From Clostridia bacterium (GTDB lineage Bacteria; Bacillota; Clostridia; UMGS1883), in assembly GCA_045545295.1 (NCBI GenBank), contig JAZQAO010000054.1, forward strand, positions 20,826 through 84,825: 64,000 nt of DNA, given 5' to 3'. This document shows, piece after piece, positions 4,545-57,649 of this stretch. How positions within the stretch are numbered: the first letter of the stretch is position 1; each line of letters opens with the position of its first letter. The translations under genes were made by a program, and so were the position numbers. The notes under the pieces are model-generated. The model saw only the letters and a program-made list of their open reading frames with translations. It was not told where the DNA came from and did no database searches.

Positions 4545-4728
4545 AAAAAAGAAGCGTGCCGCTTCACCCATGTCGCGTCCCAACAACATTCAATTTTCCA
4601 ATTGTTGCTCGCGATTGAATTACGCAAATTCCTATACGGTAAAAAAGAAGCGTGCCGCTTCACCCACGTCGCGCACGTACAAAGTGCAAACACAGTTTCA
4701 CGCGTACTAATTTACGCAAATTCCTATA
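4545..4728 (+). repeat. Two tandem copies of a ~93-bp modular interspersed repeat (left module AAAAAAGAAGCGTGCCGCTTCACCCAYGTCGCR, variable core, right module TTACGCAAATTCCTATACGGT)
   Basis: Direct sequence comparison with 7 other loci in this window; core subtypes A and B. Confidence 0.85.
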
Positions 4729-4837
4729 AAATAAAAACAGAAAACGGAAAACAGAATGAAAAGGTAGCTAAATGCTCTTAAAACCGATGTTTTGTTTTTG
4801 CGATTTTGTACCTCCAAATTCCGTTTTCCGTTTATTT

Positions 4838-7800
4838 TCAATTAATAAGTTCTGCCGTAACAGAAGCTATTTTCACATCTGTAAAACCGCTGATTGTAAA
4901 ATCAGTCTTTAAGCGTTCCATATTGTCAAGGCACGCCCCCGTAAGATTAAGGGTAACTGTTTTAAGCTCACCTGTTCCCGTACGGGTTATTTTTTCAGTA
5001 TTCTTAACAAGGCGGTTTCTTGTTTCACCTATTTCAAAGGTGTAATAGGTGAAGTTGAAATCAGTTGTTCCCTCGTCAAGATAAGTAATTGTAACCTTTA
5101 CATTTCCCTCGGTCTGATATGCGACTTCATTCTTGACATTTACACGCATAACGTTTCCTTTGGGAAGCTTATAAAGAGCCTGTCCATTATGAGTAATTAC
5201 TTCAACTTCACTGTCGCAGTCCGCATAGCTGAAGCTGTCGCAGCTACCTGAAAGGTCATACCAACCGCCGTCGGGAGCATTTGCAATAATGTCCGAAACA
5301 TCTGCCCAGCCGATTCTTATAATCTTACCTGTTTCGTCATAGTGACCAAACCACACCTTTGTACCGTCAAGATTAAATGCAGGATGGCAGTGTCCCGGAT
5401 TAATACCTGTCTGCTTTACTCTTGCAACAACATGGCTTACACCTGTGTAACAGTCAATAAGCACTATATCTGAATATTCACCGTTACTGTAACCCGTATC
5501 CGCTACTGCCCAGCGGTTACTTACGGGACTTGTTGCAACGTGGTTATATGCATAGTCACTGTTTATGTAATTACGTTCTGTCCCGTCATATTTAATGGAA
5601 ACAATACCTGGATAGCCGATTGCGGAGCTACCCGAAGATTTATGGAACACTATATGCTCACCGTCGTGTGTCCACATCTCATGGCAAGCAATTTCACCTG
5701 CAGATTTCGCAGAATAAAATCTTGGAACAAATACATTATAGTATTCGTCAGTATCTGTATTAAGCACCCACAATCTGTCATTTACGGAAGTACCTTCGTG
5801 ACAGAAAAGAAGAAGATTCGGCTTTACGGGGTTAATTGAAACATGGTTTGGATCATACCACTCTGTATCGAATACGTAGCTATGAGTAAGATCCCACTCC
5901 CCTGTTTCAATATCAAGTATGGGGAATCTTGAGCCTTCGGCAAGCTTCTTGTCCGACCACTCAACAGAAAGCTTTTCCTCCGTATCCATTACCTGAAGCA
6001 TACCTGCAGCATCTGCATATTCTTCCGGGATGACACCGACTACCTTTTTCTCATAAGTGTCAATATCCATTCTTATTATTTCACTGTCGCGGTTAATATA
6101 GAAAAGTCCGTTAAGTGGCGTTGTCACTATATTATGCTCTCTCTCACAATGGTCGATATACTTTACACTGCTTGTTGTTAAATTGTATTCATAAATCCTG
6201 AAATCGTCGTCACGGACAAAGAATTTATTTCCGTCCGCTGACCATCCCTGCATTGTAAAGTAGCTTCTTATCATATTTTTGCCGTTGAAATCTACCCAGT
6301 TATAGGATCTTCCCGAAACAGGGCAAGTCATTTCCCCTGATATTACTTCACGGTTAAGCTCATTCTTAAAGTAAAGCTGTTCTTGGTATGGATATGCAAT
6401 ATTCTTATCAAGTAAAAATACTTTAACAACCGAGTTTTCAGGATTTTCAGAAAGCTTGAAATCTTCAAATATAAGCTCTTCTGCGGTTGAGCTGTCTGTA
6501 TCAAGGTCAATGGACTTAAGACTGATATTTGTCAGTTCAGAATTCTGATATTCACATACTGCAACGCTGACTTTTTTAGCTTCCTCTGTCTGATTGTAAA
6601 GGCGGACATTCACATCAATAGTTCCGTCAAGTACCTCTTCAATAGCACCGACAGTCCTGCCGTCTGATGAGAATGTACTGTTTGAAACAACATCACCTGC
6701 CACTGTATATGCGGCAAAGTTATCAAAAGAAAGCTGACCTGACTGTGTTCTGAAGTTTGTGAAACGAATATCCTCAACGTTATAAAGTGCCTGGTCTTTT
6801 CTTGTAGTACATTCATAAAGGCCTATTGGAGTTTCGTTAATCTTCACACCATTAATAAAGTAGTCTGCCGTCTGGGTTGCTGTATTAATCTCAATTCTGA
6901 GAGTGAACCATTCATCAAGTATAGGTGCAGTTTCCATAAGATAAACGCTTCTTACTGTACCGGCATTGTCCTGACGTCTTGTGAACATAAATTCACGGTA
7001 ACCCTCGTAATAAAAACAGCAGTCAACTATCTGTGCCCTTTCTTTTGTGCCGTCAGGCAGAAGATAGTTTCCGTACATATGGAAGAAGTAATACTGTGGC
7101 GTATCAGAGTGATTAAATTTCAGGTCCGTTTCGAAAGCCACTTTGTACTGTGACGTTGTGGGGAATTTGTACTGAACAAATTTCTGTGACCCGCTTGTCC
7201 CTTCACGCCATGTATGCATAAAGTAGTTTTTGTTTTTATCAACTTCCAACGCTGTTTTGTAGGGGGCGTCACTGTACGTTGTTATTCCCATTTCAGATTC
7301 TGTAATCTGATGTATTCCCTTCCCTATGCTTTCGGGATAGTAAAATGAATCGGAATAATATACCGCTTTACCTTTAGAAAGAACTCTGTACTCAAGTTCT
7401 TTGTCTATAAGAATATTTTTTCCGTTTTGCATAATTGATGCGGTAATTTTAACAGTGGTATCTTCAAGGGGACGCTTTACAATACCCACTCCTTTTTCAC
7501 TGTTTACATCAATAACGGAAGGATTACTGCTTTCAAATGTGATTTCTACATCTGAAAAATCAATGCCGGAAAGCTTTGTGTAATCAAGGTCAAGATTTTT
7601 TGTTATGTGTTTTACAGACTCTGCCGTAAATACTTCCGGGGTAATAAGCTTTGCAATGTTTGATATTTTACTGTATTCATCACTACAAAGAACAGTGTAG
7701 CTTAACTCCTTTGTAACAGACGCACCGTTCTTTGAAATAGTTGCAGTAACAGTTACTGGCGTATCGTACTTCCCTCTTGTAACTGTGCCGTCACCGGAAA

Positions 7801-12888: not shown

Positions 12889-14598
12889 TTATCGGCTTAA
12901 AGCGCCGTAGATTAACTTAGCCGCCTGTGCACGTGTAAGCTTACCTGTAGGCTGGAACTGGGTTTCTGTCATACCGTTGATTACGCCTGCAGATGCAAGT
13001 GCATCAACGCTTTCCTTTGCATATTCTGCAATTTCGCCTGAATCGCTGAAGTTCTTTGCCTCACCGTTTTCAAGAGTGATACCCTTAAAATCAAGCACTC
13101 TCTTAAGCATTACTGCCGCATCCTGTCTTGTAATAGGCTGACCTACACCAAAAGTGAAGTTATCCTGACCTTTTACAATTCCTTTAACCTGTGCACTCGC
13201 AACATAAATATTTGCCCAGTGTCCTAAGAGGTCTGTGAAAATAGTAAGTGCTGTTTCATCATACATATCGAAAGCCATTACATACATCTTTACAAATGCT
13301 TCTCTTGTAACGTAGCTGTCAGGATCAAAGGTATTAAGTGCAATACCGTCGATTACACCAAGACTGTGAAGCTCGTTTACAGCCTCAAATGCCCAGTGGT
13401 CTACAGGAACGTCATTAAACATACTTGTTGAAGGAAGTGTAGGAAGAACTTCAAGGCTTTCATTTTTATTAAGAAGGTCTGAATCAACTATAACTTCCTT
13501 ATCGGGATTTTTCGCGGGGCCGCTGAATCCGCCACCGCCGCCACCGCCGCCACCGCCGGAGGGCTTTGAGTTTTCTTCATTATAGGAAACAACATCTTCA
13601 AACGCCTTTACAACTTCACCTGCAAGCACGAAATCCTGACCTACAAAGGCTTTGTTGATTTCACCTGCCCCGTATTTGTCGCAAGCATCTTCGTAATCCT
13701 GAAGAGTAATGCCGAAGTATTCGATGTACTTTTCAACAGTAGGACCGTTCTTTGTAGCATCAAGCTTATTAAGATTAGCTATTGCAATACTCTGGAAAAG
13801 GTCATTCTTTACATCAGTAATTGTTTCGGGAGCCTCGTTCTTTGCGTTAGCATAGAAAAGCTCATAAACTACATCTTTATTATCACTGTAGTCTCTGTCC
13901 TCTTTATCAAGTGTAAGAAGTGTGCTTTCATCCTCGCAAAGTGTCACGCACTCTTCATCGGTTGTTGTAGCGTTGATATCACGGATAAGCTGTACACCCG
14001 AAAGGATGTTTACTACAGTACCCATATCATTACATTCGTTATTGTAATCTGCTTCACGGATGTTAAGGAAAAGGTCACAGATTACATCTGTATTTTCTGC
14101 AAAATCTGTTTTGTCGATTGAAAGCATATCTGCCTTTTCAGAAAGAAGTGTTTCAATTTCTGCACGGTCTGCAGTTTCAATTGCCGGAAGTGTAACCTCT
14201 TCTATATAAGTCTGGCTTTCAAAGTAGATTTCTGTTGTATCCTTTGAAACAGCCGCTTTTGTACCGTTACCGGATGCAGCGATTACAAGGTAACCTGCCG
14301 GGTCATCTTCTGCAAGCTGAATTTCTGTTTCCACAAATCCGCTGCCGTCTGTTTTAACTTCAAGTGCACGTACGAAATCAGCAGGTGAAGATACCGTAGT
14401 TTCTTTTTCGTACATTACTATTGAAATTTTCTGCACATATTTTGCAGGTGTTGTAACCTGTATTGTAACTACAGATGTGTCGTAGTTTACAGATGCAGTT
14501 ACATCAAACTCTGTTTCTGCCGATACACTAAAGCACATAAGTGAAAGTGTCATAGTGCATACAACAATCATACAGAGGATTTTTTTAATATTCTTCAT
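12889..14598 (-). CDS. Secreted protein with poly-Gly linker and three C-terminal SLH domains (S-layer anchored)
   Basis: FNDVPVDHWAFEAVNELHSLGVIDGI...TREAFVKM and two further SLH copies. G10 linker. Start moved to ATG 14598 (AGAGGAG RBS) rather than the ORF-track Met at 14616, which lies inside that RBS. Confidence 0.8.
   Translation of the reverse strand: MKNIKKILCMIVVCTMTLSLMCFSVSAETEFDVTASVNYDTSVVTIQVTTPAKYVQKISIVMYEKETTVSSPADFVRALEVKTDGSGFVETEIQLAEDDPAGYLVIAASGNGTKAAVSKDTTEIYFESQTYIEEVTLPAIETADRAEIETLLSEKADMLSIDKTDFAENTDVICDLFLNIREADYNNECNDMGTVVNILSGVQLIRDINATTTDEECVTLCEDESTLLTLDKEDRDYSDNKDVVYELFYANAKNEAPETITDVKNDLFQSIAIANLNKLDATKNGPTVEKYIEYFGITLQDYEDACDKYGAGEINKAFVGQDFVLAGEVVKAFEDVVSYNEENSKPSGGGGGGGGGGFSGPAKNPDKEVIVDSDLLNKNESLEVLPTLPSTSMFNDVPVDHWAFEAVNELHSLGVIDGIALNTFDPDSYVTREAFVKMYVMAFDMYDETALTIFTDLLGHWANIYVASAQVKGIVKGQDNFTFGVGQPITRQDAAVMLKRVLDFKGITLENGEAKNFSDSGEIAEYAKESVDALASAGVINGMTETQFQPTGKLTRAQAAKLIYGALSR
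13527..13560 (-). repeat. (GGC/GGT)n simple repeat encoding a Gly10 linker
   Basis: gccaccgccgccaccgccgccaccgcc seen directly; translates to GGGGGGGGGG in the SLH protein. Confidence 0.8.
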
Positions 14599-26830: not shown

Positions 26831-26923
26831 AAAAAGAAGCGTGCCGCTTCACCCACGTCGCACCCTCACAGGAGTGCAAACAAAGTTTCCTGCGTCATAA
26901 TTTGACGCAAATTCCTATACGGT
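26831..26923 (+). repeat. Single copy of the modular interspersed repeat (core subtype C)
   Basis: aaaaaagaagcgtgccgcttcacccacgtcgca...ttgacgcaaattcctatacggt. Confidence 0.85.
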
Positions 26924-26971
26924 AAAAAAAATTGTACATTTTGGGGACTGTCCCCAAAATGTACAATTTTT
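26924..26971. terminator. 48-bp perfect palindrome (24-bp stem) flanked by A/T runs: bidirectional intrinsic terminator at the spoVT stop
   Basis: aaaaaaaattgtacattttggggac t gtccccaaaatgtacaatttttttt read directly. Confidence 0.8.
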
Positions 26972-34920: not shown

Positions 34921-35108
34921 AAAAAAGAAGCGTGCCGCTTCACCCACGTCGCGTCCAAACTTAACTTAAAACCCACAAATATTGCTCGCGATAAAAAACG
35001 CAATTTCCTATACGATAAAAAAGAAGCTTGCCGCTTCACCCATGTCGCGCACCTGCAAATGTCGAACATAGCTTCACGCGAATAAAATTACGCAAATTCC
35101 TATAAGGT
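34921..35108 (+). repeat. Two tandem copies of the modular interspersed repeat (core subtypes A and D)
   Basis: Direct sequence identity of left and right modules with other loci. Confidence 0.85.
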
Positions 35109-38384: not shown

Positions 38385-38476
38385 AAAAAAGAAGCGTGCC
38401 GCTTCACCCATGTCGCGCACCTGCAAATGTCGAACATAGCTTCACGCGAATAAAATTACGCAATTTCCTATACGGT
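38385..38476 (+). repeat. Single copy of the modular interspersed repeat (core subtype D)
   Basis: Identical core to the second copy at 35017..35108. Confidence 0.85.
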
Positions 38477-43160: not shown

Positions 43161-43248
43161 AAAGCCCGCCGCTTCACCCATGTCGCACCCTCGCAGGAGT
43201 GCAAACAAAGTTTCCTGCGTCATAATTTGACGCAAATTACTATACAGA
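43159..43248 (+). repeat. Degenerate copy of the modular interspersed repeat (core subtype C), then hairpin terminator 43253..43276
   Basis: aaaaagcccgccgcttcacccatgtcgcaccctcgcaggagtgcaaacaaagtttcctgcgtcataatttgacgcaaattactatacag. Confidence 0.7.
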
Positions 43249-43275
43249 AACAAAAAAACGGCTAAAGCCGTTTTT

Positions 43276-43950
43276 TCACTTACAAAGGTTTATAAAATTT
43301 TCAAAAAACCTGTTTTCAATGGGATTTCCTTCTACAAAGCTTTTTTCAGGATGCCACTGAGTTGCAAAGATGCGTTTTTCTTTCCATTCAACAGCTTCAA
43401 TAACACCGTCATCTGATACTGCAACAGTTCTGAGTCCGGGTGCAAGCTTATCTATTGCCCAATAGTGATATGAATTGACCTCTGCAAAGTCCGAATTAAA
43501 CACATCGTAAACAAAGGAATTCTTTTCTATGCTTATTTTATGGTTTCTTGACATGGGATTACTGTGTATACTTTCATCAATCTCTTTCAGGTTTCCACCT
43601 AAATACACGTTTATCGCCTGAAGTCCGCCACAGATTCCTAGTATTGGTTTGTTGTTTTTTACAAACCAATCAATTAATTTTGCATCCAGAGAATATTCAT
43701 CATAGGCTTGTTCTTCACGAAATGGCTCTCCTCCCCAGTATGATGGGTTGATATTCGTACTGCTTCCCGGAACTATAAGTCCGTCACATTTTTCACAGAT
43801 TTCAGTGAAGCCGTATTCTGTCATGATACAATTCATCCCTACCTTATATTTTTCAGCCATAAGCTCCCAGAAACAAGGTATAGAAAAACGCTCATCCCAA
43901 CCATCGCCACGTCCCATATTGACATATCTTAAAACAGTTGCAAAATTCAT
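43276..43950 (-). CDS. Peptidase C26 / class-I glutamine amidotransferase-like gamma-glutamyl hydrolase
   Basis: GICGGLQAINVYLGGNL (nucleophile Cys) and ATQWHPE motifs; AAGGTGA RBS. Confidence 0.75.
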   Translation of the reverse strand: MNFATVLRYVNMGRGDGWDERFSIPCFWELMAEKYKVGMNCIMTEYGFTEICEKCDGLIVPGSSTNINPSYWGGEPFREEQAYDEYSLDAKLIDWFVKNNKPILGICGGLQAINVYLGGNLKEIDESIHSNPMSRNHKISIEKNSFVYDVFNSDFAEVNSYHYWAIDKLAPGLRTVAVSDDGVIEAVEWKEKRIFATQWHPEKSFVEGNPIENRFFENFINLCK

Positions 43951-43966
43951 AAATTCACCTTGCCTA

Positions 43967-46438: not shown

Positions 46439-46722
46439 CTCATAAGTTTTTTCAGTATATCGAGCAGTTCATCAACTGTTGATTCTTTACCGTCTTTTAT
46501 ATCTTTTTCAACACAGGTTTTTATATGATTGGAAAGAATTTCCCGATTCAAGGCATCCAGCGCAGCATTTGCCGCAGTTATCTGCGTTATAACATCGGTG
46601 CAGTAAGCATCCTCATCAATCATCCTGCCAATTCCTCTTATTTGCCCCTCAATACGCTTTATTCTGTTTAAAAGCAGCTTTTTTTCGTTATCAGTTCTTT
46701 CTTTTTTTCTGCAGCAATCCAT
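46435..46722 (-). CDS. csoR: CsoR-family copper-sensing transcriptional repressor
   Basis: LLNRIKRIEGQIRGIGRMIDEDAYCTDVITQITAANAALDAL matches CsoR/DUF156; 4-bp overlap with copA. Confidence 0.8.
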   Translation of the reverse strand: MDCCRKKERTDNEKKLLLNRIKRIEGQIRGIGRMIDEDAYCTDVITQITAANAALDALNREILSNHIKTCVEKDIKDGKESTVDELLDILKKLMR

Positions 46723-46751
46723 ACCCTCACCTCACAGCTATTATATACCCC

Positions 46752-46772
46752 CTAGGGGTATATTGTCAACAA
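46752..46772. promoter_or_regulatory. Candidate CsoR operator: perfect palindrome TATATACCCCTAGGGGTATAT upstream of csoR-copA
   Basis: Read directly; resembles TACCC-N-GGGTA type CsoR operators. Confidence 0.55.
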
Positions 46773-46890
46773 AAAATTAGTACTTACACAACTTTTATCT
46801 TAAGAAATCTTATTTTAACGTAATTAAGGGAGATATAAAGAAATCGAATTTCTTTATATCCCCTTTAATTCAATCTTCTGATATATTTTT

Positions 46891-47075
46891 TAATTTAGAG
46901 GAATTTGCGTAAATTAGTACGCGTGAAACTGTGTTTGCACTTTGTACGTGCGTGACGTGGGTGAAGCGGCACGCTTCTTTTTTAATTTATAGGAATTTGC
47001 GTAAATTAGTACGCGTGAAACTGTGTTTGTACTTTGTACGTGCGCGACGTGGGTGAAGCGGCACGCTTCTTTTTT
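46891..47075 (-). repeat. Two tandem copies of the modular interspersed repeat in reverse orientation (core subtype B), abutting the stop of the transglycosylase gene
   Basis: ...gacgtgggtgaagcggcacgcttctttttt repeated twice. Confidence 0.85.
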
Positions 47076-47769
47076 ATTGCTGACTCAAAATATCAGAAGC
47101 CTCTTCTTCGGAAAGTTTTCCATTTTCCACCATAGCCTCAACAACAGTCTTTTGCCTTTGTTTTGCAAGATCGGGGTTGTTATCAAGAGAATATACTGAC
47201 GGCGCATTTGGAATCCCTGCAAGAAGTGTTGCTTCATAATCGCTCATATCAGCAGGCTCTTTCCCGAAATAGCCCACGGAAGCATCCCGGATTCTGTAAT
47301 ATCCGCTTCCGTAGTATATATTATTAAAATAAAGTTCCAATATTTCATCCTTTGAAAACTTTGCTTCAAGCTTAAAGGCAACAAACGACTCTGCTACTTT
47401 TCTTGTAAGAGAATCATCATTTATGAAATAAATATTTTTCGCAAGCTGCTGTGTTATTGTACTGCCACCTTCTGCAAAAGTTTTCTTTTCAAAATTTGAC
47501 TTAAATGCTCTTATTATGCCCTTTATATCTATCCCCTTATGCTCATAAAAACGCCTGTCCTCAACGCAGACCATAGCATCCTTAAAAGTTGGATTGATAT
47601 CGGAAATCTTTGTATAGGAGCTGTAAGTTTGGATTTTCTTTACAGCATCGTCAAGTGACAACTGACTTATTGCCTGTTTGTACTTTCCGTAACCTGCGGC
47701 AACTACTCCGACGATAATCAAAAGTGCCAGTGTTAATATAGTCGATATTATTCTTTTTATAAATTTCAT
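47074..47769 (-). CDS. Monofunctional peptidoglycan glycosyltransferase (GT51, MtgA-like) with N-terminal TM anchor
   Basis: EDRRFYEHKGID and GGSTITQQLAKN GT51 motifs. Confidence 0.8.
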   Translation of the reverse strand: MKFIKRIISTILTLALLIIVGVVAAGYGKYKQAISQLSLDDAVKKIQTYSSYTKISDINPTFKDAMVCVEDRRFYEHKGIDIKGIIRAFKSNFEKKTFAEGGSTITQQLAKNIYFINDDSLTRKVAESFVAFKLEAKFSKDEILELYFNNIYYGSGYYRIRDASVGYFGKEPADMSDYEATLLAGIPNAPSVYSLDNNPDLAKQRQKTVVEAMVENGKLSEEEASDILSQQ

Positions 47770-48575
47770 ACTGTTTCACCCCGTTTTTTTCTTACTTTGC
47801 CCGGAGAAATTCCCCGCACCTTTTTAAAGACAGCGGCAAAGTAGCTGCTGCTGTTAAATCCGCAGTTCTGTGCAATCTCCGTAATGGGCAAATCTGTCGT
47901 TATAAGAAGCTTTTCCGCGTTTTTTATACGCACCGTTGCAATATACTCATTTACTCCAAATCCGGTATACGCTTTGAACTGTCTTGAAAAATGGCTCTCA
48001 CTGAGTGCAAACTCCCCGGAAAGCGACGAAAGTGAAAGCTCCTGATGGTAATTGTCCCGTATATGCAGAACTGCTTTTTGAATTATGGTATCGTTAAACG
48101 ATACCTCTCCTTGCTTATCTGCATCTGTCATACGGCAGAGGGAAACAAGAATTTCCCTTATATATCCTGCAATAAGATCATCCGAGTAGCTATCCTTATT
48201 ATAATACTCCGATGCAGCTTTTTCAATAGTTTCCTTCAGCGGCGGAGCTTTAAAATATCTTTCCTTAAAGCATCTGAATATTCTGTCAGATGCGGCACAC
48301 ATTATATACTCATTTGTAAAAGCTATCAGAATTCTCTCTGCACCTTCATTCATAAGAGCTGCAGTCCTGTGGATAGTATGAGGAGGAATCAGTATAACAT
48401 CACCCTCAGAAAGGTCATAAATTCTTTCATCGACAAAATAGCGCACTCTTCCCTTTTTAAGAAAATATATCTCATAATGATCGTGATAATGAGCGCTCGG
48501 CATATTAAAAGCACTTGACCTGTGTTTTTCATTTATTTCAACATTTTCTATAATTTCATCTACTGCGATCCCCAT
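47766..48575 (-). CDS. AraC-family transcriptional regulator (cupin + HTH)
   Basis: Start at Met 48575 with GGAGGG RBS; AraC HTH (ITEIAQNCGFNSSSYFAAVFKKVRGISPGK). Confidence 0.8.
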   Translation of the reverse strand: MGIAVDEIIENVEINEKHRSSAFNMPSAHYHDHYEIYFLKKGRVRYFVDERIYDLSEGDVILIPPHTIHRTAALMNEGAERILIAFTNEYIMCAASDRIFRCFKERYFKAPPLKETIEKAASEYYNKDSYSDDLIAGYIREILVSLCRMTDADKQGEVSFNDTIIQKAVLHIRDNYHQELSLSSLSGEFALSESHFSRQFKAYTGFGVNEYIATVRIKNAEKLLITTDLPITEIAQNCGFNSSSYFAAVFKKVRGISPGKVRKKRGETV

Positions 48576-48719
48576 AAAATTCCCTCCATAATTGAATATA
48601 TCAGTTTCTATTCTTTTTTTCAAGCAAAAATTTAACATTTTTAGCGGATTTAAGCAAATTATTGATAGAAATTAAAAATTTTTTGATATATACTGTAATT
48701 TGAATGGAGGTATGTAATT

Positions 48720-49985
48720 ATGAAAGAAAAAATAATACAGTTTGGTGAAGGCGGATTTTTAAGAGGCTTTGTTGACTGGATGATTCAGATAATTAACGAA
48801 AAAACTGATTTTGGTGCAAAAGCAGTAGTTGTTCAACCGATTGATAAAGGAATGTGCGATATGCTTTCCTCTCAGGGCTGCAAGTACACTCATATATGTC
48901 GCGGAAGTGAAGGTGTCGATATAAGAAAGATCGACGTTATTTCGCGTTGCGTAAAACCCTATGAAGATTTTGAAGCATATCTGAAGCTTGCGGAAAATTC
49001 TGATTTCCGTTTCATTGTTTCAAACACTACTGAAGCCGGCATTGTTTTTAACGAAAGCGACAAATTTACAGACACACCGGCATTATCTTTCCCTGGAAAG
49101 CTTACGCAGCTTCTTAAAAAGAGATTTGACCTCAAGCTTCCGGGATTTGTATTTCTTCCCTGTGAGCTTATTGACAAAAACGGTGAAAACCTAAAAAAGA
49201 CAATTCTTCAGTACATCAAGCTCTGGAATCTTGGAGACGATTTTAAAAGCTGGATAGAAAACGAAAATATTTTCTGCAACACTCTTGTTGACAGAATCAA
49301 CACGGGATTTCCTAAGGACGAATATGACGAGCTTGGTATTGACGACCAGATGCTCAACACTTCAGAGTATTTCCACCTTTGGGTAATTGAGGGATACAAC
49401 GGACTTTTCAGCGAAATTCCTTTTGATAAATGCAACCTTAACGTAATTGTAACCGATAATCTTGAAATGTACAGAACAAGAAAAGTCCGCATCCTTAACG
49501 GGGCTCACACATCACTTGTTCCTTACGCTCTTCTCGAAGGCTTTGATACTGTTAAATCATGCGTTGATGACGAAGGGATGCTCGGTCACATCAAAAAGTG
49601 TGTATATGATGAAATAATCCCCACACTTGACCTTCCTAAAGAGGAGCTTATTCAGTATGCGGATGATGTTATAACACGTTTTTCAAATCCATATATAAAG
49701 CATTATCTTTCATCAATCGCACTTAACTCTGTAAGTAAATTCAAAGTCAGAGTTCTCCCCTCAATTCTTGAATATATAAACCGTTTTGGAAAAATGCCCG
49801 AAACTCTCATTTTCTCATTTGCAAAATTAATTGATTTTTACAGAACAGATATGACAAACGATGATAAAGCTGTTTGCGAATTTATGAAAAAAGCATCAGT
49901 AAAAGAAATTCTCTCAAACAAGGAACTTTGGGATTATGACCTCTCCTATCTTTGCGAGGAGGTAGAAAAATATGTTAATAAATAA
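48720..49985 (+). CDS. uxaB: Tagaturonate reductase / altronate oxidoreductase
   Basis: IIQFGEGGFLRGFVDW, FIVSNTTEAG, CNTLVDRI, RKVRILNGAHTSLVP, RFSNPYIKHYLSSIALNS co-linear with E. coli UxaB (mannitol dehydrogenase family). Confidence 0.8.
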   Translation: MKEKIIQFGEGGFLRGFVDWMIQIINEKTDFGAKAVVVQPIDKGMCDMLSSQGCKYTHICRGSEGVDIRKIDVISRCVKPYEDFEAYLKLAENSDFRFIVSNTTEAGIVFNESDKFTDTPALSFPGKLTQLLKKRFDLKLPGFVFLPCELIDKNGENLKKTILQYIKLWNLGDDFKSWIENENIFCNTLVDRINTGFPKDEYDELGIDDQMLNTSEYFHLWVIEGYNGLFSEIPFDKCNLNVIVTDNLEMYRTRKVRILNGAHTSLVPYALLEGFDTVKSCVDDEGMLGHIKKCVYDEIIPTLDLPKEELIQYADDVITRFSNPYIKHYLSSIALNSVSKFKVRVLPSILEYINRFGKMPETLIFSFAKLIDFYRTDMTNDDKAVCEFMKKASVKEILSNKELWDYDLSYLCEEVEKYVNK

Positions 49986-51342
49986 GATTGACAACGTAGA
50001 AGTTAATCTTGAAAACGGTCACAAATATGCCCGCACAGATATTAAAATCGGAGAAAACATCATAAAGTACGGTCAGCCTATCGGTCACGCTACTGAGGAT
50101 ATAAAAAAAGGCGAGCATGTGCACACACATAATATGAAAACAAACCTCTCCGGGGAGCTTGAGTATACTTACGAGCCGGGAGAGGTTATGCGGGATAAAA
50201 TCGAAACTGACAGAACCTTTATGGGGTACAGACGAAAAAACGGCTCTGTCGGAATCAGAAACGATGTGTGGATTATTCCTACTGTTGGCTGTGTAAACAG
50301 CCAGGCTAAGGTAATTGCCGAAAAGACAGGAGCTAAGGCATTTACACATCCTTTCGGTTGCTCACAGCTGGGTGATGACCAGACAGTTACTCAGCTTATT
50401 CTCCGTGGACTTGTAAACCACCCCAATGCCGGAGGAATACTTGTTCTTGGACTTGGTTGCGAAAACAATCATATTGATTTGTTCAAGTCTGTTCTCGGCA
50501 CTTGGGATGACGAGCACGTTAAATTTCTCAACGCTCAGGACACAACAGACGAGATTGAAGAAGGTATAAAAATTGTAAAGGCACTTCAGAAAAGAGCCGC
50601 AGGTTTCACACGTGAACCTATACATATAAGCGAGCTTAAGATAGGTCTTAAATGCGGTGGAAGCGATGGTTACAGCGGTATAACTGCAAACCCTCTTGTC
50701 GGAAGACTTTCTGACTACCTTATTTCTATGGGTGGCAGTTGTGTACTGACGGAAGTACCTGAAATGTTTGGTGCGGAGCATCTTTTGATGAAACGTTGCA
50801 GGAACAGAGAGATTTTTGATAAAACAGTTGAACTCATCAATAATTTCAAAAAATACTTTATCCGCCACAATCAGGTTGTATATGAAAATCCCTCTCCGGG
50901 TAATAAAGCCGGTGGAATTACAACTCTTGAGGAAAAATCCCTCGGATGTGTGCAAAAAGGTGGTCTTGGCGAGGTTGTAGATGTACTTGACTACGGTGAT
51001 GTACTTAAAGAAAGCGGTCTCTCGCTCCTTAACGGTCCCGGTAATGACATCGTTGCAGTAACAAATCTTACTGCATGCGGAGTTCACATGATTCTCTTCA
51101 CAACAGGCAGAGGAACTCCACTTGGTGCACCTGTTCCTACAATTAAGATTGCTACAAACAAGGCTTTGGCAAAAAGAAAGCCCGGCTGGATTGATTTTGA
51201 TGCAAGCGGTCTCCTTGACGGTGAGGAGCTTACAGAAGCATTGCTTGACTACTGCATAGATATTGCCGAAGGAAAGCAAGCTAAAAACGAAATTAACAAG
51301 TGTGAGGAAATCTCTATTTTCAAAGATGGAGTTATGTTATAA
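49972..51342 (+). CDS. uxaA: Altronate dehydratase
   Basis: SAF N-domain (MLINKIDNVEVNL) plus GD_AH C-domain; overlaps uxaB by 14 nt. Confidence 0.8.
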   Translation: MLINKIDNVEVNLENGHKYARTDIKIGENIIKYGQPIGHATEDIKKGEHVHTHNMKTNLSGELEYTYEPGEVMRDKIETDRTFMGYRRKNGSVGIRNDVWIIPTVGCVNSQAKVIAEKTGAKAFTHPFGCSQLGDDQTVTQLILRGLVNHPNAGGILVLGLGCENNHIDLFKSVLGTWDDEHVKFLNAQDTTDEIEEGIKIVKALQKRAAGFTREPIHISELKIGLKCGGSDGYSGITANPLVGRLSDYLISMGGSCVLTEVPEMFGAEHLLMKRCRNREIFDKTVELINNFKKYFIRHNQVVYENPSPGNKAGGITTLEEKSLGCVQKGGLGEVVDVLDYGDVLKESGLSLLNGPGNDIVAVTNLTACGVHMILFTTGRGTPLGAPVPTIKIATNKALAKRKPGWIDFDASGLLDGEELTEALLDYCIDIAEGKQAKNEINKCEEISIFKDGVML

Positions 51343-51387
51343 TCAAATGTTTCCTACGTCTTAATTTTACTCAATTTTCCGTAATAC

Positions 51388-51575
51388 AAAAAAGAAGCGT
51401 GCCGCTTCACCCATGTCGCACCCTCGCAGGAGTGCAAACAAAGTTTCCTGCGTCATAATTTGACGCAAATTCCTATACGGTAAAAAAGAAGCGTGCCGCT
51501 TCACCCATGTCGCACCATCACAGAAGTACATACACGGTTTCCTGCGACATAATTTTGCGCAAATTCCTATACGGC
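51388..51575 (+). repeat. Two tandem copies of the modular interspersed repeat (core subtypes C and E)
   Basis: Direct comparison; subtype E carries compensatory stem atgtcgca/tgcgacat. Confidence 0.85.
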
Positions 51576-51617
51576 AAAAAAGAAAGTCGCATCACAAATG
51601 ATGCGACTTTCTTTTTT
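51576..51617. terminator. Bidirectional intrinsic terminator between uxaA (+) and the aldolase operon (-)
   Basis: aaaaaagaaagtcgcatcacaaatgatgcgactttcttttttg; 14-bp stem, A6/T6 flanks. Confidence 0.8.
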
Positions 51618-51626
51618 GTGTTTAAA

Positions 51627-52574: not shown

Positions 52575-52609
52575 TTGTTTTCCTCCTTTAAGTAATAGAG
52601 TTTTATATT

Positions 52610-53743: not shown

Positions 53744-53829
53744 AGTGTTTTTCCTTTCATTTTTACATACTTAATAAAGTGCACAAGGGCTGTCGCATAA
53801 CTGCGACGGCCCTTTGTGATTTTTAGTTA

Positions 53830-55200: not shown

Positions 55201-55510
55201 AGCAAAAACCTCTTTCTTTTTATAATTTAGCCCCCTTGCAGATTGCGCGGGGAAATTGTTTACAATATAATTATATACGAAATGAAGATGATGTCAATAA
55301 AATTTTTCACTTTTTTTGATGATTTTCTTCATTTTTTTACCGATATATCCCCATTTTCCCTATTTTTAGCCGTTTTCGTTTTTTATTTTCATTCTTTCGT
55401 TTATCTTTCGTTTAGTTTATTATCGTCTTTTGATTTTCTTTATTTAGGCTTTCGCATCTTTTTTATTTACCTTTCGGAAAATCATAGTGCATTACATTTT
55501 CAATTATCTA

Positions 55511-55539
55511 TTGACAGACGTGTCGCATTATGTTAAAAT
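55511..55539 (+). promoter_or_regulatory. Sigma-A-type promoter TTGACA-17-TAAAAT driving the lysine riboswitch leader
   Basis: Read directly at 55511-55516 and 55534-55539. Confidence 0.55.
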
Positions 55540-55552
55540 ATGTAAAAACAGA

Positions 55553-55775
55553 TTTGGTAGAGGTGCGGAATCTATCAGTACGATATGCAACTCGGGACAT
55601 TCCTGCATATCTGAAAGGAGCTTCCGCCGAAGTTTTGGGAGGCAATGTCCGTTTCCCGGGCTGGGCTGCAGTACAACATATTGCAGACTGTCACGTAAGT
55701 GGAGCGCTATCGTATATTTATGGCACTTTTTGTGTCTTTTTGCGGTACAGGCTCTGCCTGTACCATTTTTGTTTA
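55553..55775 (+). promoter_or_regulatory. Lysine riboswitch (L-box) with terminator-type expression platform
   Basis: GGTAGAGGTGCGG, CTGAAAGGAGCTTCCGCCGAAG, ACTGTCA, GGAGCGCTATCG segments match conserved L-box elements (as in B. subtilis lysC leader); terminator ggtacagg-ctctg-cctgtacc + atttttgttt at 55745-55775. Confidence 0.65.
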
Positions 55776-55795
55776 ATTAAATAGGAGGGTTTAAA

Positions 55796-57418
55796 ATGAA
55801 ATTTTTAAACAAAAAGAACATTCTCTCCTTCTTCACATTTATCCTTATTCTTGCAACAGCAATCATTGCTTTTGCAGAAGGTGAAGAAGCAGAACACGTA
55901 AGCAAATTTGCTTCAACATTCTGGGCACTTGTTCCCCCGGTTGTAGCAATCGTGCTTGCGCTCATCACTAAAGAAGTGTACTCTTCCCTTTTTGTAGGTA
56001 TTCTTTCAGGCGCACTTCTTTTCGCAAACTTTGATCTGGAGATTGCAATGAACCACATGCTCGTGGATGGATTCATTGCATCACTTTCCGACAGCTGGAA
56101 CGTAGGTATCCTTGTATTTCTCGTTATCCTCGGTGCTATCGTTGCTCTTATGAATAAGGCAGGCGGCAGCGCAGCGTTCGGAAGATGGGCTTCCACAAGA
56201 ATCAAGACAAAGTTTGGTGCACAGTGCGCAACAATCGCACTTGGCGTACTTATCTTCATCGACGACTACTTCAACTGTCTCACAGTTGGTTCGGTAATGC
56301 GTCCTGTTACAGACAAGTTCAAGATTTCAAGAGCAAAGCTTGCTTACCTTATTGATGCTACAGCAGCTCCTGTTTGTATCATCGCTCCCATTTCTTCATG
56401 GGCTGCAGCAGTTGCAGGTTTTGCAGAGGGTTCAGGAATGAACGGTCTTGAGCTTTTCATCAGAGCTATCCCCTATAACTTCTACGCTCTTCTCACAATT
56501 GTAATGATGTTTACTCTTGCGATTATGAAGTTTGAGTTTGGCCCCATGAAAAAGCATGAAGCTAACGCTGAAAACGGTGACCTCTTCTCTTCAGATGATG
56601 CAGAAGTTTTCAAGGCTCTTGAAAATAATAACCCCGATTCCAAGGGCAAGGTTATTGATCTTGTTCTCCCTGTTATTGTACTTATCATCACTTGCGTAAT
56701 CGGTATGATTTACACAGGCGGTTTCTTCAGCGGTGAAAGCTTTGTTGACGCTTTTGCAAACAGCGACGCTTCCGTTGGTCTTGTAATCGGTTCTTCAATC
56801 GCACTTGTATTCACAATTATTTATATGTTCGCTCGCAGAGTGCTTACGTTTAAAGAATGTATGGGCTGCGTTCCAGAAGGTTTCAAAGCTATGGTACCTG
56901 CAATAATGATTCTTACATTTGCATGGACTCTTAAGGCTATGACAGACTCTCTCGGTGCTGCAGATTACATTGCAGGTCTTGTTCAGGGTTCTGCTGAAGG
57001 TTTTGTTAACTTCCTTCCCGCAATTGTATTCCTTGTTGCTTGCGTACTTGCATTTGCATCAGGTACTTCATGGGGTACATTCGGTATCCTTATTCCCATT
57101 GTTGTAGCAGCATTTGGTGGCTTCAGCAGCGAAATCACAATCATTGCAGTTTCTGCTTGTATGGCAGGTGCAGTTTGCGGCGACCACTGCTCACCCATTT
57201 CAGACACAACAATTATGGCATCTGCGGGAAGCCAGTCAAACCATATTAACCACGTTAACACACAGCTTCCCTATGCTATATTGGTTGCTGCAATTTCTTT
57301 TGTATGTTATCTTATCGCAGCGTTTATACAGAATCCGTTCATTCTTCTTCCCATCGGCATTGTTATTACAATAGTAACACTTTTTGTAATAAAGAAGATA
57401 ACAACAAAGAACGCGTAA
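55796..57418 (+). CDS. NhaC-family transporter, probably a lysine transporter given the L-box leader
   Basis: 540 aa, ~12 TM; NhaC-family architecture; AGGAGGG RBS. Confidence 0.8.
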   Translation: MKFLNKKNILSFFTFILILATAIIAFAEGEEAEHVSKFASTFWALVPPVVAIVLALITKEVYSSLFVGILSGALLFANFDLEIAMNHMLVDGFIASLSDSWNVGILVFLVILGAIVALMNKAGGSAAFGRWASTRIKTKFGAQCATIALGVLIFIDDYFNCLTVGSVMRPVTDKFKISRAKLAYLIDATAAPVCIIAPISSWAAAVAGFAEGSGMNGLELFIRAIPYNFYALLTIVMMFTLAIMKFEFGPMKKHEANAENGDLFSSDDAEVFKALENNNPDSKGKVIDLVLPVIVLIITCVIGMIYTGGFFSGESFVDAFANSDASVGLVIGSSIALVFTIIYMFARRVLTFKECMGCVPEGFKAMVPAIMILTFAWTLKAMTDSLGAADYIAGLVQGSAEGFVNFLPAIVFLVACVLAFASGTSWGTFGILIPIVVAAFGGFSSEITIIAVSACMAGAVCGDHCSPISDTTIMASAGSQSNHINHVNTQLPYAILVAAISFVCYLIAAFIQNPFILLPIGIVITIVTLFVIKKITTKNA

Positions 57419-57425
57419 ATTCAAA

Positions 57426-57459
57426 CAAAAAACTCCCGTAGAAAGCGGGAGTTTTTTTT
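57426..57459 (+). terminator. Intrinsic terminator after the NhaC-family gene
   Basis: aaaaaactcccgtagaaagcgggagtttttttt. Confidence 0.8.
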
Positions 57460-57649
57460 ACCGTATAGGAATTTGCGCAAAATTATGTCGCAGGAAACCG
57501 TGTATGCACTTCTGTGATGGTGCGACATGGGTGAAGCGGCACGCTTCCTTTTTAATTTATAGAAAATTGCGTTTTTTATCGCGAGCAATATTTGTGGGTT
57601 TTAAGTTAAGTTTGGACGCGACGTGGGTGAAGCGGCACGCTTCTTTTTT
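57460..57649 (-). repeat. Two tandem copies of the modular interspersed repeat, reverse orientation (core subtypes E and A)
   Basis: accgtataggaatttgcgcaaaattatgtcgcaggaaaccgtgtatgcacttctgtgatggtgcgacatgggtgaagcggcacgcttcc... and second copy. Confidence 0.85.

What the first reader, a model, noticed from the sequence alone, without database searches (positions are those of the whole stretch)
4545..57649. A ~93-bp modular interspersed repeat family: 13 copies at 8 intergenic loci in 64 kb
Loci (all verified by eye): 4545-4728 (x2), 26831-26923, 34921-35108 (x2), 38385-38476, 43159-43248 (degenerate), 46891-47075 (x2, reversed), 51388-51575 (x2), 57460-57649 (x2, reversed). Each unit has a near-invariant left module AAAAAAGAAGCGTGCCGCTTCACCCAYGTCGCR, which contains a GAAGCG/CGCTTC hairpin flanked by A6. 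A ~40-50 bp variable core falls into at least five related subtypes. The right module TTACGCAAATTCCTATACGGT is near-invariant. Copies always sit between genes, often directly abutting a stop codon (43158, 47074) and often just before a separate strong terminator. The conserved-flanks/variable-core architecture resembles BOX/RUP/REP-type elements or a small-RNA family. I do not recognise this particular sequence as a described element. The density, one locus per ~8 kb, is striking.
Basis: seen in the sequence. Interest (0 to 1): 0.7.

Follow-up and report, generated by a model that had tools for sequence, protein, structure and literature searches.

The report
Terminator-seeking mini repeat in gut Clostridia
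The window carries 13 copies of an undescribed ~90-bp repeat that looks like a small parasitic DNA element: it inserts, always in the same orientation, into the A-rich tract beside transcription terminators, and it has recently multiplied in one lineage of uncultured gut Clostridia.

Summary
There are 13 full-length units of 85-89 nt at 8 intergenic loci, each flanked or separated by a TAAAAAA heptamer, where chance predicts none. The units fall into six subfamilies.

The family is not local. Its left 20-mer occurs in at least 91 loci of many uncultured Clostridia/Oscillospiraceae MAGs. It matches nothing in Rfam, phage, plasmid or viral collections, or the literature searched.

The evidence favours a mobile, non-autonomous DNA element over an RNA gene:
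- Close relatives have empty orthologous sites with the same terminator and promoter.
- The flanking heptamers co-vary, consistent with a ~7-bp target duplication.
- The units have no terminal inverted repeats.
- Insertion is strictly orientation-specific. The right end faces a strong terminator hairpin in 63 of 77 arrays, against 5 of 77 on the left.
- Orientation relative to transcription is random (19:19).
- Promoter regions are avoided.

The "abutting stop codon" feature arises because TAA is the start of the TAAAAAA target.

The conserved left hairpin keeps its stem through compensatory changes. On the reverse strand it reads as a weak terminator.

The mobilising enzyme is unknown, and an RNA-mediated (SINE-like) route is not excluded. 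I rate it a new variant of the interspersed-repeat kind, of moderate to good interest.

The parts
4551..4639 (+). unit, subfamily A (89 nt), first of a head-to-tail dimer; flanked by TAAAAAA on both sides
4647..4731 (+). unit, subfamily B (85 nt), second of the dimer. The array lies between the stop of the 1768-aa surface-protein gene and the RBS of the GH88 gene (both on the - strand), so it is reverse-oriented relative to transcription
26836..26922 (+). unit, subfamily C (87 nt), singleton. Its right end abuts the A-run of the SpoVT-gene terminator hairpin (26930-26968)
34927..35015 (+). unit, subfamily D (89 nt), first of a dimer in a divergent intergenic region; 100% identical to a copy in MAG JAZUOX (L016)
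35023..35107 (+). unit, subfamily E (85 nt), second of the dimer; its left hairpin carries a G-to-T change (GAAGCT)
38391..38475 (+). unit, subfamily E (85 nt), singleton, followed directly by TAAAAAAA + hairpin GGTTGATGC..GCATCAACC + T-run
43161..43247 (+). degenerate unit, subfamily C (87 nt; 3 mismatches in the left module). The TAA stop of the AraC-family gene (43158-43160) abuts it; terminator hairpin ACGGCTAAAGCCGT follows
46893..46977 (-). unit, subfamily B (85 nt), second unit of a dimer on the - strand
46985..47069 (-). unit, subfamily B (85 nt), first unit of the dimer. The TAA stop of the transglycosylase gene (47074-47076 on the - strand) is the start of its left heptamer
51394..51480 (+). 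unit, subfamily C (87 nt), first of a dimer. The outer flanks of the dimer are CAAAAAA on both sides, while the inner junction is TAAAAAA
51488..51574 (+). unit, subfamily F (87 nt), second of the dimer, followed by the shared bidirectional terminator 51575-51618 of the aldolase and altronate-dehydratase genes
57461..57547 (-). unit, subfamily F (87 nt). Its right end abuts the T-run of the antiporter-gene terminator (57427-57457). Absent at the orthologous site of relatives L123 and L127
57555..57643 (-). unit, subfamily D (89 nt), first unit of the dimer on the - strand, upstream of the conserved NAD-kinase promoter (57674-57702)

Best explanation
The repeats are copies of a small, non-coding, non-autonomous mobile element of 85-89 bp.

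Anatomy. The left end is an almost invariant module: the hairpin GAAGCG-TGC-CGCTTC followed by ACCCA. The core is variable and subfamily-specific, and is closed by a short CGCG/CGCG helix. The right end is a conserved module, ..ACGCAAATTCCTATACGG. There are no terminal inverted repeats.

Shown here. The element inserts in a single orientation into the heptamer TAAAAAA, and the heptamer ends up on both sides as a ~7-bp target duplication. In these genomes such A-tracts are mainly the A/T tracts that flank intrinsic-terminator hairpins, so the element lands in one of two places. It sits either between a stop codon (the TAA of the target) and the gene's terminator, or, seen from the other strand, directly after the terminator's T-run. 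Both positions are harmless to genes. Repeated hits into the duplicated heptamer build head-to-tail arrays, and recombination between units reshuffles cores and changes copy number. The family has expanded recently in the window's lineage, and the same subfamilies occur in other species.

Inferred. The left hairpin + ACCCA is the part shared by otherwise different repeat families. These include a high-GC Eubacteriales MAG and a contig labelled Gastranaerophilales. It is therefore probably the site recognised by the mobilising enzyme, which is encoded elsewhere and remains unidentified.

Favoured mechanism (inference, about 25-30% likely). Mobilisation runs through a single-stranded, strand-specific intermediate whose end pairs with the A-tract. 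The most economical version is a reverse-strand transcript that ends at the element's own hairpin + U6. Its U-tail anneals to a nicked A-tract and is copied by a reverse transcriptase.

Side effect. Each reverse-oriented copy adds a weak terminator-like hairpin + T6.
For: Real and widespread. There are 13 copies against 0 expected. The same 20-mer occurs in at least 91 loci of many Clostridia/Oscillospiraceae MAGs.

Gain and loss. In the antiporter / NAD-kinase intergenic region, relatives L127 and L123 keep the same terminator hairpin + T-run and the same TTGACC..TATAAT promoter but lack the two units. In the window the insert is exactly 2 x (unit + heptamer), placed at the T-run. Downstream of the aldolase gene, L123, L129, L130 and L131 have only a terminator. 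Relatives with 94-99% identical aldolase carry 0-1 copies in 10-21 kb, against 7 copies in the corresponding part of the window.

Target duplication. Flank heptamers agree more than permuted pairs do: 5.28 vs 4.95 +/- 0.065, with 0 of 2000 permutations reaching the observed value. The rare C variant co-occurs on both sides (8/6/3/55, Fisher p = 3e-5). Individual cases include TAAGAAA, TAAATAA, ATATAAA and an 11-mer TAAAAAAGTAA.

No terminal inverted repeats.

Polarity. A hairpin of <= -8 kcal/mol starts within ~15 nt of the right end in 63 of 77 arrays, against 5 of 77 on the left.

Context. Convergent 28, divergent 3, co-directional 19 forward and 19 reverse. In 30 of 39 array-first copies whose left neighbour points inward, the stop codon lies 0-13 nt before GAAGCG.

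Free sites. Only 1 of the 7 unoccupied intergenic TAAAAAA sites in the window is hairpin-adjacent.

Recent spread. Subfamily copies at unlinked loci are 96-99% identical. Subfamily D is 100% identical to a copy in JAZUOX, whose orthologous DNA is only 88.7% identical.

Hairpin is structural. L127 carries GCAGGC-TGC-GCCTGC, three compensatory pairs with the same loop, and L078 carries GCAGCG/CGCTGC.

Modular core. The 20-mer occurs alone or with unrelated tails next to housekeeping genes such as gyrB, adhE, alaS and ffh.

For the RNA route. On the reverse strand the left module is flagged as terminator-like, GAAGCGGCACGCTTC + T6. Truncated copies keep the left end and lose the right end (L019, L026, L048, L072, L074). 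The dimer at 51394-51574 has new outer CAAAAAA flanks but an inner TAAAAAA, as if it moved as one piece.
Against: - No transposase, reverse transcriptase or HUH gene was found next to any copy, and no long autonomous version with both ends was seen in about 1.2 Mb of fetched DNA.
- The duplicated heptamer is low-complexity. 17 of 72 arrays differ at the informative first base, so the duplication is supported statistically rather than case by case.
- The loci were selected by the left 20-mer. Its invariance and the excess of left-retaining truncations are therefore partly ascertainment.
- Orphan right-end fragments also exist (L012, L035, L127), and the right module occurs with a different left part (L065, L048). 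A simple SINE-like picture does not predict either.
- High-GC variants have no A/T tract beside the hairpin.
- Near-identity of whole subfamilies across species could also reflect selection on a function.
Confidence: 0.7

Rival explanations
1. DNA-only mobilisation by a hairpin-recognising single-strand (HUH/Y1) transposase. The units would be REP/REPIN-like or IS200/IS605-derived palindrome-associated elements, served in trans by a RAYT or TnpA encoded elsewhere.
For: There are no terminal inverted repeats, and insertion is strictly orientation-specific next to a fixed short target. The conserved module is a hairpin plus a 5-nt single-stranded tail that ends sharply at ACCCA, as in HUH recognition sites. 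The stem is kept by compensatory changes. The distribution is REP-like: 3' ends and intercistronic regions, rarely promoters.
Against: To my knowledge, HUH transposition leaves no target duplication, whereas the flanks co-vary. Arrays are head-to-tail only, never the inverted pairs that define REPINs and BIMEs (PMC3337134). There is no GTAG/CGTC tag 5' of the hairpin (PMC3733652). The hairpin abuts the element boundary with no room for a guide/cleavage-site arrangement like that of IS608. No Y1 gene was seen in the fetched loci, although most genes there were not screened.
Confidence: 0.15
2. A family of functional RNA elements kept by selection. Candidates are a 3'-UTR or intercistronic element acting right after stop codons (mRNA stabiliser, processing site, ribosome-release or recoding signal), or a multicopy small RNA ending at the adjacent terminator.
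For: - The left hairpin starts 0-13 nt after the stop codon in 30 of 39 first units with an inward-pointing left gene, including TGA|GAAGCG and TAG|GAAGCG cases without an A-run.
- A unit plus the following terminator would give an RNA with protective hairpins at both ends.
- Forward strands fold somewhat better than shuffles (z = -3.1, -2.5, -1.8, -0.2).
- The stem shows compensatory changes.
- Subfamily sequences are more conserved across species than coding DNA.
- Copies sit at the same gene ends in species 69-77% identical to the window (L072, L043).
Against: - Orientation relative to transcription is 19:19 in co-directional regions, and 22 of 69 copies have the left gene pointing away.
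- No promoter-like site was found.
- Close relatives lack the units at orthologous sites with no visible replacement.
- The only consensus structure is the 6-bp hairpin. G-U versus A-C counts give no strand call (43 vs 31).
- Unit lengths vary by non-multiples of 3, so the units are not coding.
- Rfam has no match.
- The cores have no complementary targets in the window.
Confidence: 0.1
3. The copies are exapted by the host as extra or back-up terminators and transcriptional insulators. The reverse-strand hairpin + T6 stops read-through between neighbouring genes. This reading is compatible with a mobile origin.
For: Every unit is flagged as a terminator-like site on its reverse strand, GAAGCGGCACGCTTC + T6. 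Reverse-oriented copies sit directly after an existing terminator, giving two or three terminators in series. Copies cluster at convergent gene ends.
Against: The hairpin is weak: 6 bp, 3-nt loop, about -7 kcal/mol. Half of the co-directional copies are in the orientation with no T-run after the hairpin. In several operon contexts the hairpin + T6 lies 15-30 nt upstream of the next gene's start with no room for a promoter (window 4551, L001, L018, L051), so efficient termination there would be harmful. Relatives manage without the units.
Confidence: 0.2
4. Assembly or local-duplication artefact confined to this contig.
For: None beyond the high local density.
Against: Independent assemblies from many studies and hosts carry the same element in different gene contexts.
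Confidence: 0.01

Closest known systems
REP / REPIN / BIME elements with RAYT transposases (Enterobacteria, Pseudomonas)
   Same: Both are short, non-coding and hairpin-bearing. Both are highly abundant in 3' and intercistronic regions, are rare in promoters and can lie within a few nt of stop codons. Both have mosaic or modular arrays, lineage-specific expansions and a mobilising gene encoded elsewhere.
   Different: REPs are 20-40-nt palindromes with a GTAG/CGTC tag, and they move as inverted pairs (PMC3337134, PMC3733652). Here the units are 85-89 nt, asymmetric, arranged only head-to-tail, flanked by a duplicated heptamer and tied to terminator A/T tracts. No RAYT is known for them.
Bacterial MITEs (Correia/NEMIS, RUP, BOX, ERIC, bcr1)
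   Same: Similar size class, intergenic location, target duplication, subfamilies, non-autonomous nature and possible effects on neighbouring transcripts.
   Different: MITEs are defined by terminal inverted repeats matching a parent IS (PMC3184786, PMC10969869) and insert in either orientation. These units have no TIRs and a fixed orientation relative to an asymmetric target. They share no sequence with any of those families.
Group IIC introns
   Same: Group IIC introns are the best known mobile elements that home to intrinsic terminators, inserting just after the hairpin + T-run in a fixed orientation (PMC1702495, PMC4748821). The safe-haven logic is the same.
   Different: Introns are several hundred nt or longer (from my own knowledge), carry ribozyme domains and usually a reverse-transcriptase ORF, and to my knowledge leave no duplication. 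The units have no intron-like Rfam signal and none of the GUGYG/domain V features.
Eukaryotic SINEs (functional analogy only)
   Same: Both are short and non-coding, lack TIRs, have a homopolymer tract at one end and target duplications, include truncated copies that retain one end, and have one conserved end shared between otherwise different families.
   Different: No bacterial counterpart is known. No partner reverse transcriptase or internal promoter was found. The homopolymer here would be a U-tail made by an intrinsic terminator, not a poly(A) tail.
MIRUs of Mycobacterium (from memory)
   Same: Head-to-tail tandem units of 40-100 bp, dispersed in intergenic regions of operons and touching the stop and start codons of neighbours.
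   Different: MIRUs are oriented with the operon and contain small coupled ORFs. The units here are orientation-neutral relative to genes, non-coding and terminator-associated.

Membership tests
MITE | Terminal inverted repeats at both ends | tested here: not met
   An inverted-repeat search of whole units finds only internal hairpins and no end-to-end complementarity. By eye, the ends GAAGCGTGCC.. and ..CCTATACGG are unrelated.
MITE | Target-site duplication flanking the element | tested here: met
   Flank heptamers co-vary. The empty site holds one T-run where the filled site has one on each side of the insert.
MITE | Parent insertion sequence with the same ends | tested here: inconclusive
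   No left and right modules separated by 0.5-4 kb in the fetched DNA, but no whole genome could be searched.
REP / REPIN (RAYT-mobilised) | Short palindrome with a conserved 5' GTAG/CGTC tag | tested here: not met
   The hairpin is preceded by the A-run or stop codon and followed by ACCCA; there is no GTAG/CGTC tag (definition from PMC3733652).
REP / REPIN (RAYT-mobilised) | Two REPs in inverted orientation forming the mobile unit | tested here: not met
   All five arrays in the window and all arrays in the loci are head-to-tail (definition from PMC3337134).
REP / REPIN (RAYT-mobilised) | Cognate RAYT (Y1 transposase) gene in the genome, flanked by the repeats | not testable with these tools
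   Only 8-21-kb loci were available. The ten genes screened next to variant copies are housekeeping genes.
IS200/IS605-derived palindrome-associated element | Subterminal hairpins at both ends, insertion 3' of a fixed tetra/pentanucleotide, no target duplication | tested here: not met
   The left hairpin is terminal rather than subterminal. A right hairpin is present only in some subfamilies. A duplication is supported.
Group IIC intron | Insertion after a terminator hairpin + T-run in a fixed orientation | tested here: met
   63 of 77 arrays abut a strong hairpin at the right end only; see also the empty-site comparison.
Group IIC intron | Group II ribozyme domains (I-VI) and a 5' GUGYG | tested here: not met
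   The 85-89-nt unit gives no group II Rfam hit at any threshold. The sequence lacks GUGYG at either end.
Any Rfam RNA family | Score at or above the family gathering threshold | tested here: not met
   At gathering thresholds the whole window yields only the lysine riboswitch. E-value scans of three arrays give nothing above about 18-33 bits, and those hits overlap the host terminator.
Intrinsic (Rho-independent) terminator | GC-rich hairpin followed by a T-run on the transcribed strand | tested here: met
   The reverse strand of every unit reads GAAGCGGCACGCTTC + TTTTTT and is flagged by the consensus scan. Strength is low, about -7 kcal/mol. Function was not tested.
SINE-like retroposon | RNA intermediate and a partner reverse transcriptase | not testable with these tools
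   Only indirect features are available: no TIRs, a duplication, a homopolymer junction, one-end-retaining truncations.

The most novel reading that the evidence does not exclude
The element is a bacterial retroposon of SINE type. A read-through transcript of the reverse strand terminates at the element's own hairpin + U6. The U-tail anneals to a nicked A-tract beside another terminator, and a host or intron-encoded reverse transcriptase copies the RNA into the chromosome. This would produce the heptamer duplication, the fixed orientation, the right-end truncations and the dimers that move as one piece. The shared left hairpin would be the 3'-end recognition site, as in SINE-LINE partnerships. 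No such element is known in bacteria.
Probability: 0.12. Interest if true: 0.9.

Novelty: new variant of a known kind. Interest (0 to 1): 0.6.

Why it matters
- Small interspersed repeats are well studied in Proteobacteria, streptococci and neisseriae. They are hardly studied in the uncultured Oscillospiraceae-type Clostridia that dominate gut and rumen communities.
- This family combines several features that no characterised bacterial repeat class shows together: no inverted ends, fixed orientation, a heptamer duplication, homing to the A/T tract of terminators, and a modular hairpin shared across divergent lineages. It therefore points to a mobilisation mechanism that is not yet identified, possibly RNA-mediated.
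- At the density seen here (13 copies in 64 kb), a whole genome would hold hundreds of copies if the density were uniform. That is an extrapolation.
- The units lengthen 3' UTRs, add terminator-like hairpins and provide substrates for recombination. They are also a likely cause of contig breaks in MAGs.
- The presence/absence differences seen between closely related species suggest the units could serve as strain markers in metagenomes.

Tried and rejected
- Exact-protein look-ups for four proteins found nothing, so the source genome could not be named: three translated from the window, plus P0001, the 100%-identical aldolase hit.
- The viral-contig scan and the phage and plasmid blastn searches gave no hits.
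- The metagenome scan with the UxaB-like protein returned only relatives at 60-82% identity. They had no units and no conserved synteny, so it gave no clean empty sites.
- All-against-all comparison of the loci gave several apparent 90-100-nt indels that turned out to be other sequences (L069 vs L056, L070 vs L023). It also showed a 1-kb Fic-like gene insertion.
- Small-ORF idea rejected. One unit has a 19-codon reverse-strand ORF, but unit lengths differ by non-multiples of three and the frame is not kept.
- Frameshift-signal idea rejected. A AAA AAG + hairpin resembles dnaX/IS3 sites, but the heptamer follows the stop codon and the copies are orientation-neutral.
- tRNA-like acceptor mimic (hairpin + ACCCA), dif/Xer site, attC site and CRISPR-like or guide-RNA readings were all considered and dropped. 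The evidence was the absence of complementarity between the ends, identical 'spacers' in tandem copies and the absence of core matches elsewhere in the window.
- Strand assignment from G-U versus A-C counts was inconclusive.
- A Pfam scan of about 290 neighbouring ORFs for transposases was planned and abandoned. The alignment-mode summary would hide single hits; only ten genes were scanned.


Full report

Yes. No occurrence is expected in dinucleotide-preserving shuffles. The right module occurs 9 times at <=3 mismatches, and the other four copies carry more diverged versions. A profile HMM built from 77 units finds exactly these 13 copies, all full length, and nothing else in the window.

Mapped onto a family alignment, each unit is 85-89 nt, from GAAGCG to ..CCTATACGG. 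Each is flanked or separated by a heptamer, nearly always TAAAAAA, which explains the 92-96-nt period. There are five head-to-tail dimers and three singletons. The cores fall into six subfamilies: A x1, B x3, C x3, D x2, E x2, F x2. Copies are 96-99% identical within a subfamily and 57-90% between subfamilies.

The window is ordinary chromosome of a spore-forming Clostridium-class bacterium with 39.7% G+C. Its genes include SpoVT, GH88, a pectate-lyase-like protein, SLH proteins, aldolase and NAD kinase. All copies are intergenic. The single overlapping ORF is an over-extended GTG start.

**2. Is it known, and is it local?**

Rfam 15 at gathering thresholds reports only a lysine riboswitch in the window. 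Permissive scans of three arrays give nothing beyond weak hits on the neighbouring host terminator. Literal searches for the module sequences in 8 million papers find nothing. There is no match in 2.9 million viral contigs, in phage records or in plasmids.

Almost all of these loci come from uncultured Clostridia, Oscillospiraceae, Acutalibacteraceae or Eubacteriales MAGs of gut origin. One contig is labelled Gastranaerophilales.

**3. Anatomy.**

Among 129 left-module hits in the window plus the 91 loci, 77 carry the whole unit.

- *Left module.* It is a 6-bp hairpin with a TGC loop followed by ACCCA. It is preserved through compensatory change: L127/L128 have GCAGGC-TGC-GCCTGC-ACTCA attached to an otherwise typical unit (three double changes, same loop), and L078 has GCAGCG/CGCTGC.
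- *Core.* It is closed by UCGCG/CGCGA, or CGCA/UGCG in one group, and holds a variable inner hairpin that is paired in 69% of cells. Some subfamilies add a third hairpin (GCGUCA..UGACGC or GCGUA..UACGC) that overlaps the closing helix.
- *Consensus structure.* Across all 85 distinct units, RNAalifold retains only the left hairpin. G-U versus A-C counts (43 vs 31) do not identify a transcribed strand.
- *Ends.* There are no terminal inverted repeats.
- *Reverse strand.* The left module plus the flanking heptamer reads GAAGCGGCACGCTTC-TTTTTT. The consensus scan flags this as terminator-like at every copy, although the hairpin is weak at about -7 kcal/mol.

**4. Where the units sit.**

Taking the element's own orientation as reference, the gene contexts are: convergent 28, co-directional 19 forward and 19 reverse, divergent 3. 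The units therefore avoid promoter regions but are indifferent to the direction of transcription.

There is a strong polarity of another kind. A hairpin of <= -8 kcal/mol starts within ~15 nt after the right-end A-run in 63 of 77 arrays, usually at offset 0-1 and followed by a T-run. Only 5 of 77 arrays have such a hairpin on the left.

On the left side, when the neighbouring gene points inward, its stop codon lies 0-13 nt before GAAGCG in 30 of 39 array-first copies. Typically it is the TAA of TAAAAAA. When the gene points away, its ribosome-binding site can lie directly beside the hairpin (L001, L018, L051).

Of the seven unoccupied intergenic TAAAAAA sites in the window, only one is hairpin-adjacent. 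That one is the far side of a terminator that already carries a unit.

**5. Evidence for mobility.**

(a) *Empty sites.* In the intergenic region between the lysine-riboswitch-controlled antiporter gene and the NAD-kinase gene, relatives L127 (Oscillospiraceae MAG CAYLPQ) and L123 keep the terminator hairpin + T-run and the TTGACC..TATAAT promoter at the same spacing. The window has exactly two units plus one extra T-run inserted at the T-run. Downstream of the aldolase gene, L123, L129, L130 and L131 have only a terminator, the window has two units, and L127/L128 have the variant unit.

(b) *Copy density differs sharply.* Relatives with 94-99% identical aldolase have 0-1 copies in 10-21 kb, where the window has seven. 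About 170 kb from relatives at 60-82% protein identity has none.

(c) *Flank duplication.* The heptamer before the first unit and the one after the last unit of an array agree more than permuted pairs do: 5.28 vs 4.95 +/- 0.065 matches of 7, with 0 of 2000 permutations as high. The uncommon first base C co-occurs on both sides (8/6/3/55, Fisher p = 3e-5). Non-consensus examples include TAAGAAA (L084), TAAATAA (L062), ATATAAA (L005/L081), ATAAAAAAG (L087) and an 11-mer in L055. The length therefore seems mostly 7 with some spread.

(d) *Recent copies.* Subfamily members at unlinked loci are 96-99% identical. Subfamily D is 100% identical to a copy in MAG JAZUOX, whose orthologous DNA is 88.7% identical to the window.

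(e) *Recombination.* L051 carries a single chimeric unit where the 94%-identical L082 carries two. The junction lies at a short internal repeat.

**6. Interpretation.**

*Shown:* this is a discrete insertion/deletion unit with a duplicated A-rich heptamer, a fixed orientation relative to that asymmetric target, no inverted ends and recent lineage-specific amplification.

These properties fit a non-autonomous mobile element that targets TAAAAAA. Such tracts are mainly the A/T tracts of bidirectional terminators, and an A-tract lies 5' of the hairpin on either strand. Simple A-tract targeting with fixed polarity therefore reproduces the rule that the right end faces the hairpin. It also reproduces the two observed placements: between stop codon and terminator, or just after the terminator. 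The stop-codon contact then needs no special function, because TAA is part of the target and is regenerated by the duplication. Extra recognition of the hairpin, or selection against other sites, may add to the bias.

*Inferred:* the left hairpin + ACCCA is the recognition module. It is the only part shared with otherwise unrelated repeat families:

- 39-105-nt GC-rich mosaic units in Eubacteriales MAG JAZRVE;
- 64-nt tandem units after gyrB in the Gastranaerophilales contig, and after adhE in UMGS1924;
- solitary copies in L019 and L026.

A caveat applies: those loci were found through that 20-mer, so its invariance is partly ascertainment. The L127 variant shows that it can change.

**7. Mechanism.**

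Known bacterial routes fit poorly.

- DDE transposons need inverted ends and insert in both orientations.
- To my knowledge, HUH/Y1 elements (IS200/IS605, REPINs) leave no duplication. REPINs are inverted pairs with a GTAG tag (PMC3337134, PMC3733652).
- Group IIC introns share the terminator homing (PMC1702495) but are large ribozymes.
- Tyrosine-recombinase integration would require a ~90-bp double-stranded circle.

The features point to a strand-specific, single-stranded intermediate whose end pairs with the A-tract. The most economical version is RNA-mediated. A reverse-strand transcript ends at the element's own hairpin + U6, and its U-tail primes on a nicked A-tract. This would also explain three further observations:

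- copies that keep the left end but lose the right end (L019, L026, L048, L072, L074);
- the dimer at 51394-51574, with new CAAAAAA outer flanks and an old TAAAAAA inner junction;
- one shared end among different families.

Against this model:

- no reverse transcriptase or any other partner was found;
- no promoter defines the RNA 5' end;
- high-GC variants lack the T-run;
- orphan right-end fragments exist, and a second family shares only the right module (L012, L035, L127, L065, L048).

I give the general mobile-element reading about 0.7. Within it, I give the RNA route about 0.25-0.3 and an HUH-type ssDNA route about 0.15-0.2. The remainder goes to an enzyme type not considered.

**8. Rivals.**

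A selected RNA element or sRNA family is unlikely (about 0.1). Orientation is random, close relatives lack the units, there is no promoter, and covariation is minimal. Its main support is the cross-species conservation of whole subfamilies and the recurrence of copies at the same gene ends in species only 69-77% identical (L072, L043). Target-site reuse or horizontal spread can also explain both.

Exaptation as back-up terminators is possible and not exclusive (about 0.2). The hairpin is weak, however, and sometimes lies just upstream of a start codon with no room for a promoter. An artefact is excluded.

**9. Novelty and interest.**

The kind of thing, an abundant small interspersed repeat, is familiar. 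This family meets neither the MITE nor the REPIN definition. Its combination of properties (asymmetric, TIR-less, heptamer-duplicating, terminator-tract-seeking, modular hairpin shared across distant lineages) has no described equivalent that I could find. I classify it as a new variant of a known kind, with interest 0.6. The most novel reading still open, a bacterial SINE-like retroposon, has roughly a 0.12 probability and would be of high interest.

Noticed in passing
window 55550-55717 (+): Lysine riboswitch (RF00168, 95.9 bits) upstream of the Na_H_antiporter-family gene 55796-57418. The terminator of that gene is one of the sites occupied by two units.
   Followed up: partly
window ~4735-4830: Long-range inverted repeat GAAAACGGAAAAC ... 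CCGTTTTCCGTTT between the unit dimer and the stop of the 1768-aa aBig_2 surface-protein gene. It may be that gene's terminator or another repeat.
   Followed up: no
L006, L030, L046, L061, L064, L078 (MAG JAZRVE, 53-59% G+C): The same 20-mer is one module of complex GC-rich mosaic repeat arrays with units of 39-105 nt. Each 20-mer is preceded or followed by strong GC hairpins, with no A/T tracts. This looks like a separate, richer repeat system built around the same hairpin.
   Followed up: partly
L031 2505-2714 (contig labelled Gastranaerophilales); L044 ~5000-5084: In L031, four tandem 64-nt units begin with the 20-mer, starting 3 nt after the gyrB stop codon. A related pair lies directly after adhE in UMGS1924 (L044). 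The cross-phylum attribution rests on the record titles only.
   Followed up: partly
L065 5807-5865; L048 1830-1883: A second repeat family shares only the right module (GCGCAATTTCCTATATTATAAAAA + terminator hairpin) and has a different left part (..GTTCGCTACGCTCACCTTTTTTT..).
   Followed up: no
L127 11055-11075 and L128 (other side of the aldolase terminator): An orphan 13-15-nt right-module fragment (ACCGTATAGGAAT) lies directly after the T-run. The same terminator is therefore flanked on both sides by right modules facing it.
   Followed up: partly
L122 2581-4840 (MAG JAZPYX): A small mobile insert (TnpW-like, NikA-like, HTH and DNA methylase genes) occupies the NAD-kinase/antiporter intergenic region that holds two units in the window. 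This spacer may be a recurrent insertion hot spot.
   Followed up: no
L045 4151-5223 vs L076 6271-6276: A 1-kb insertion carrying a 332-aa Fic/DOC-like ORF lies between a gene and its terminator, about 100 nt from a unit. It is present in one of two MAGs that are 94-96% identical in the flanking DNA.
   Followed up: no
window 43161-51574: Two subfamily-C units in direct orientation bracket an 8.4-kb segment (GATase, CsoR, transglycosylase, uxaB/uxaA). In relatives the aldolase gene has different downstream neighbours (YbbR/CdaA, or AraC/PFL), so the units coincide with synteny breakpoints.
   Followed up: partly
window 55374-55441 and 13529-13558: Two minor tandem repeats: a 33-nt x2.1 repeat just upstream of the lysine riboswitch, and CCGCCACCG x3.3 inside the SLH-protein gene.
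   Followed up: no
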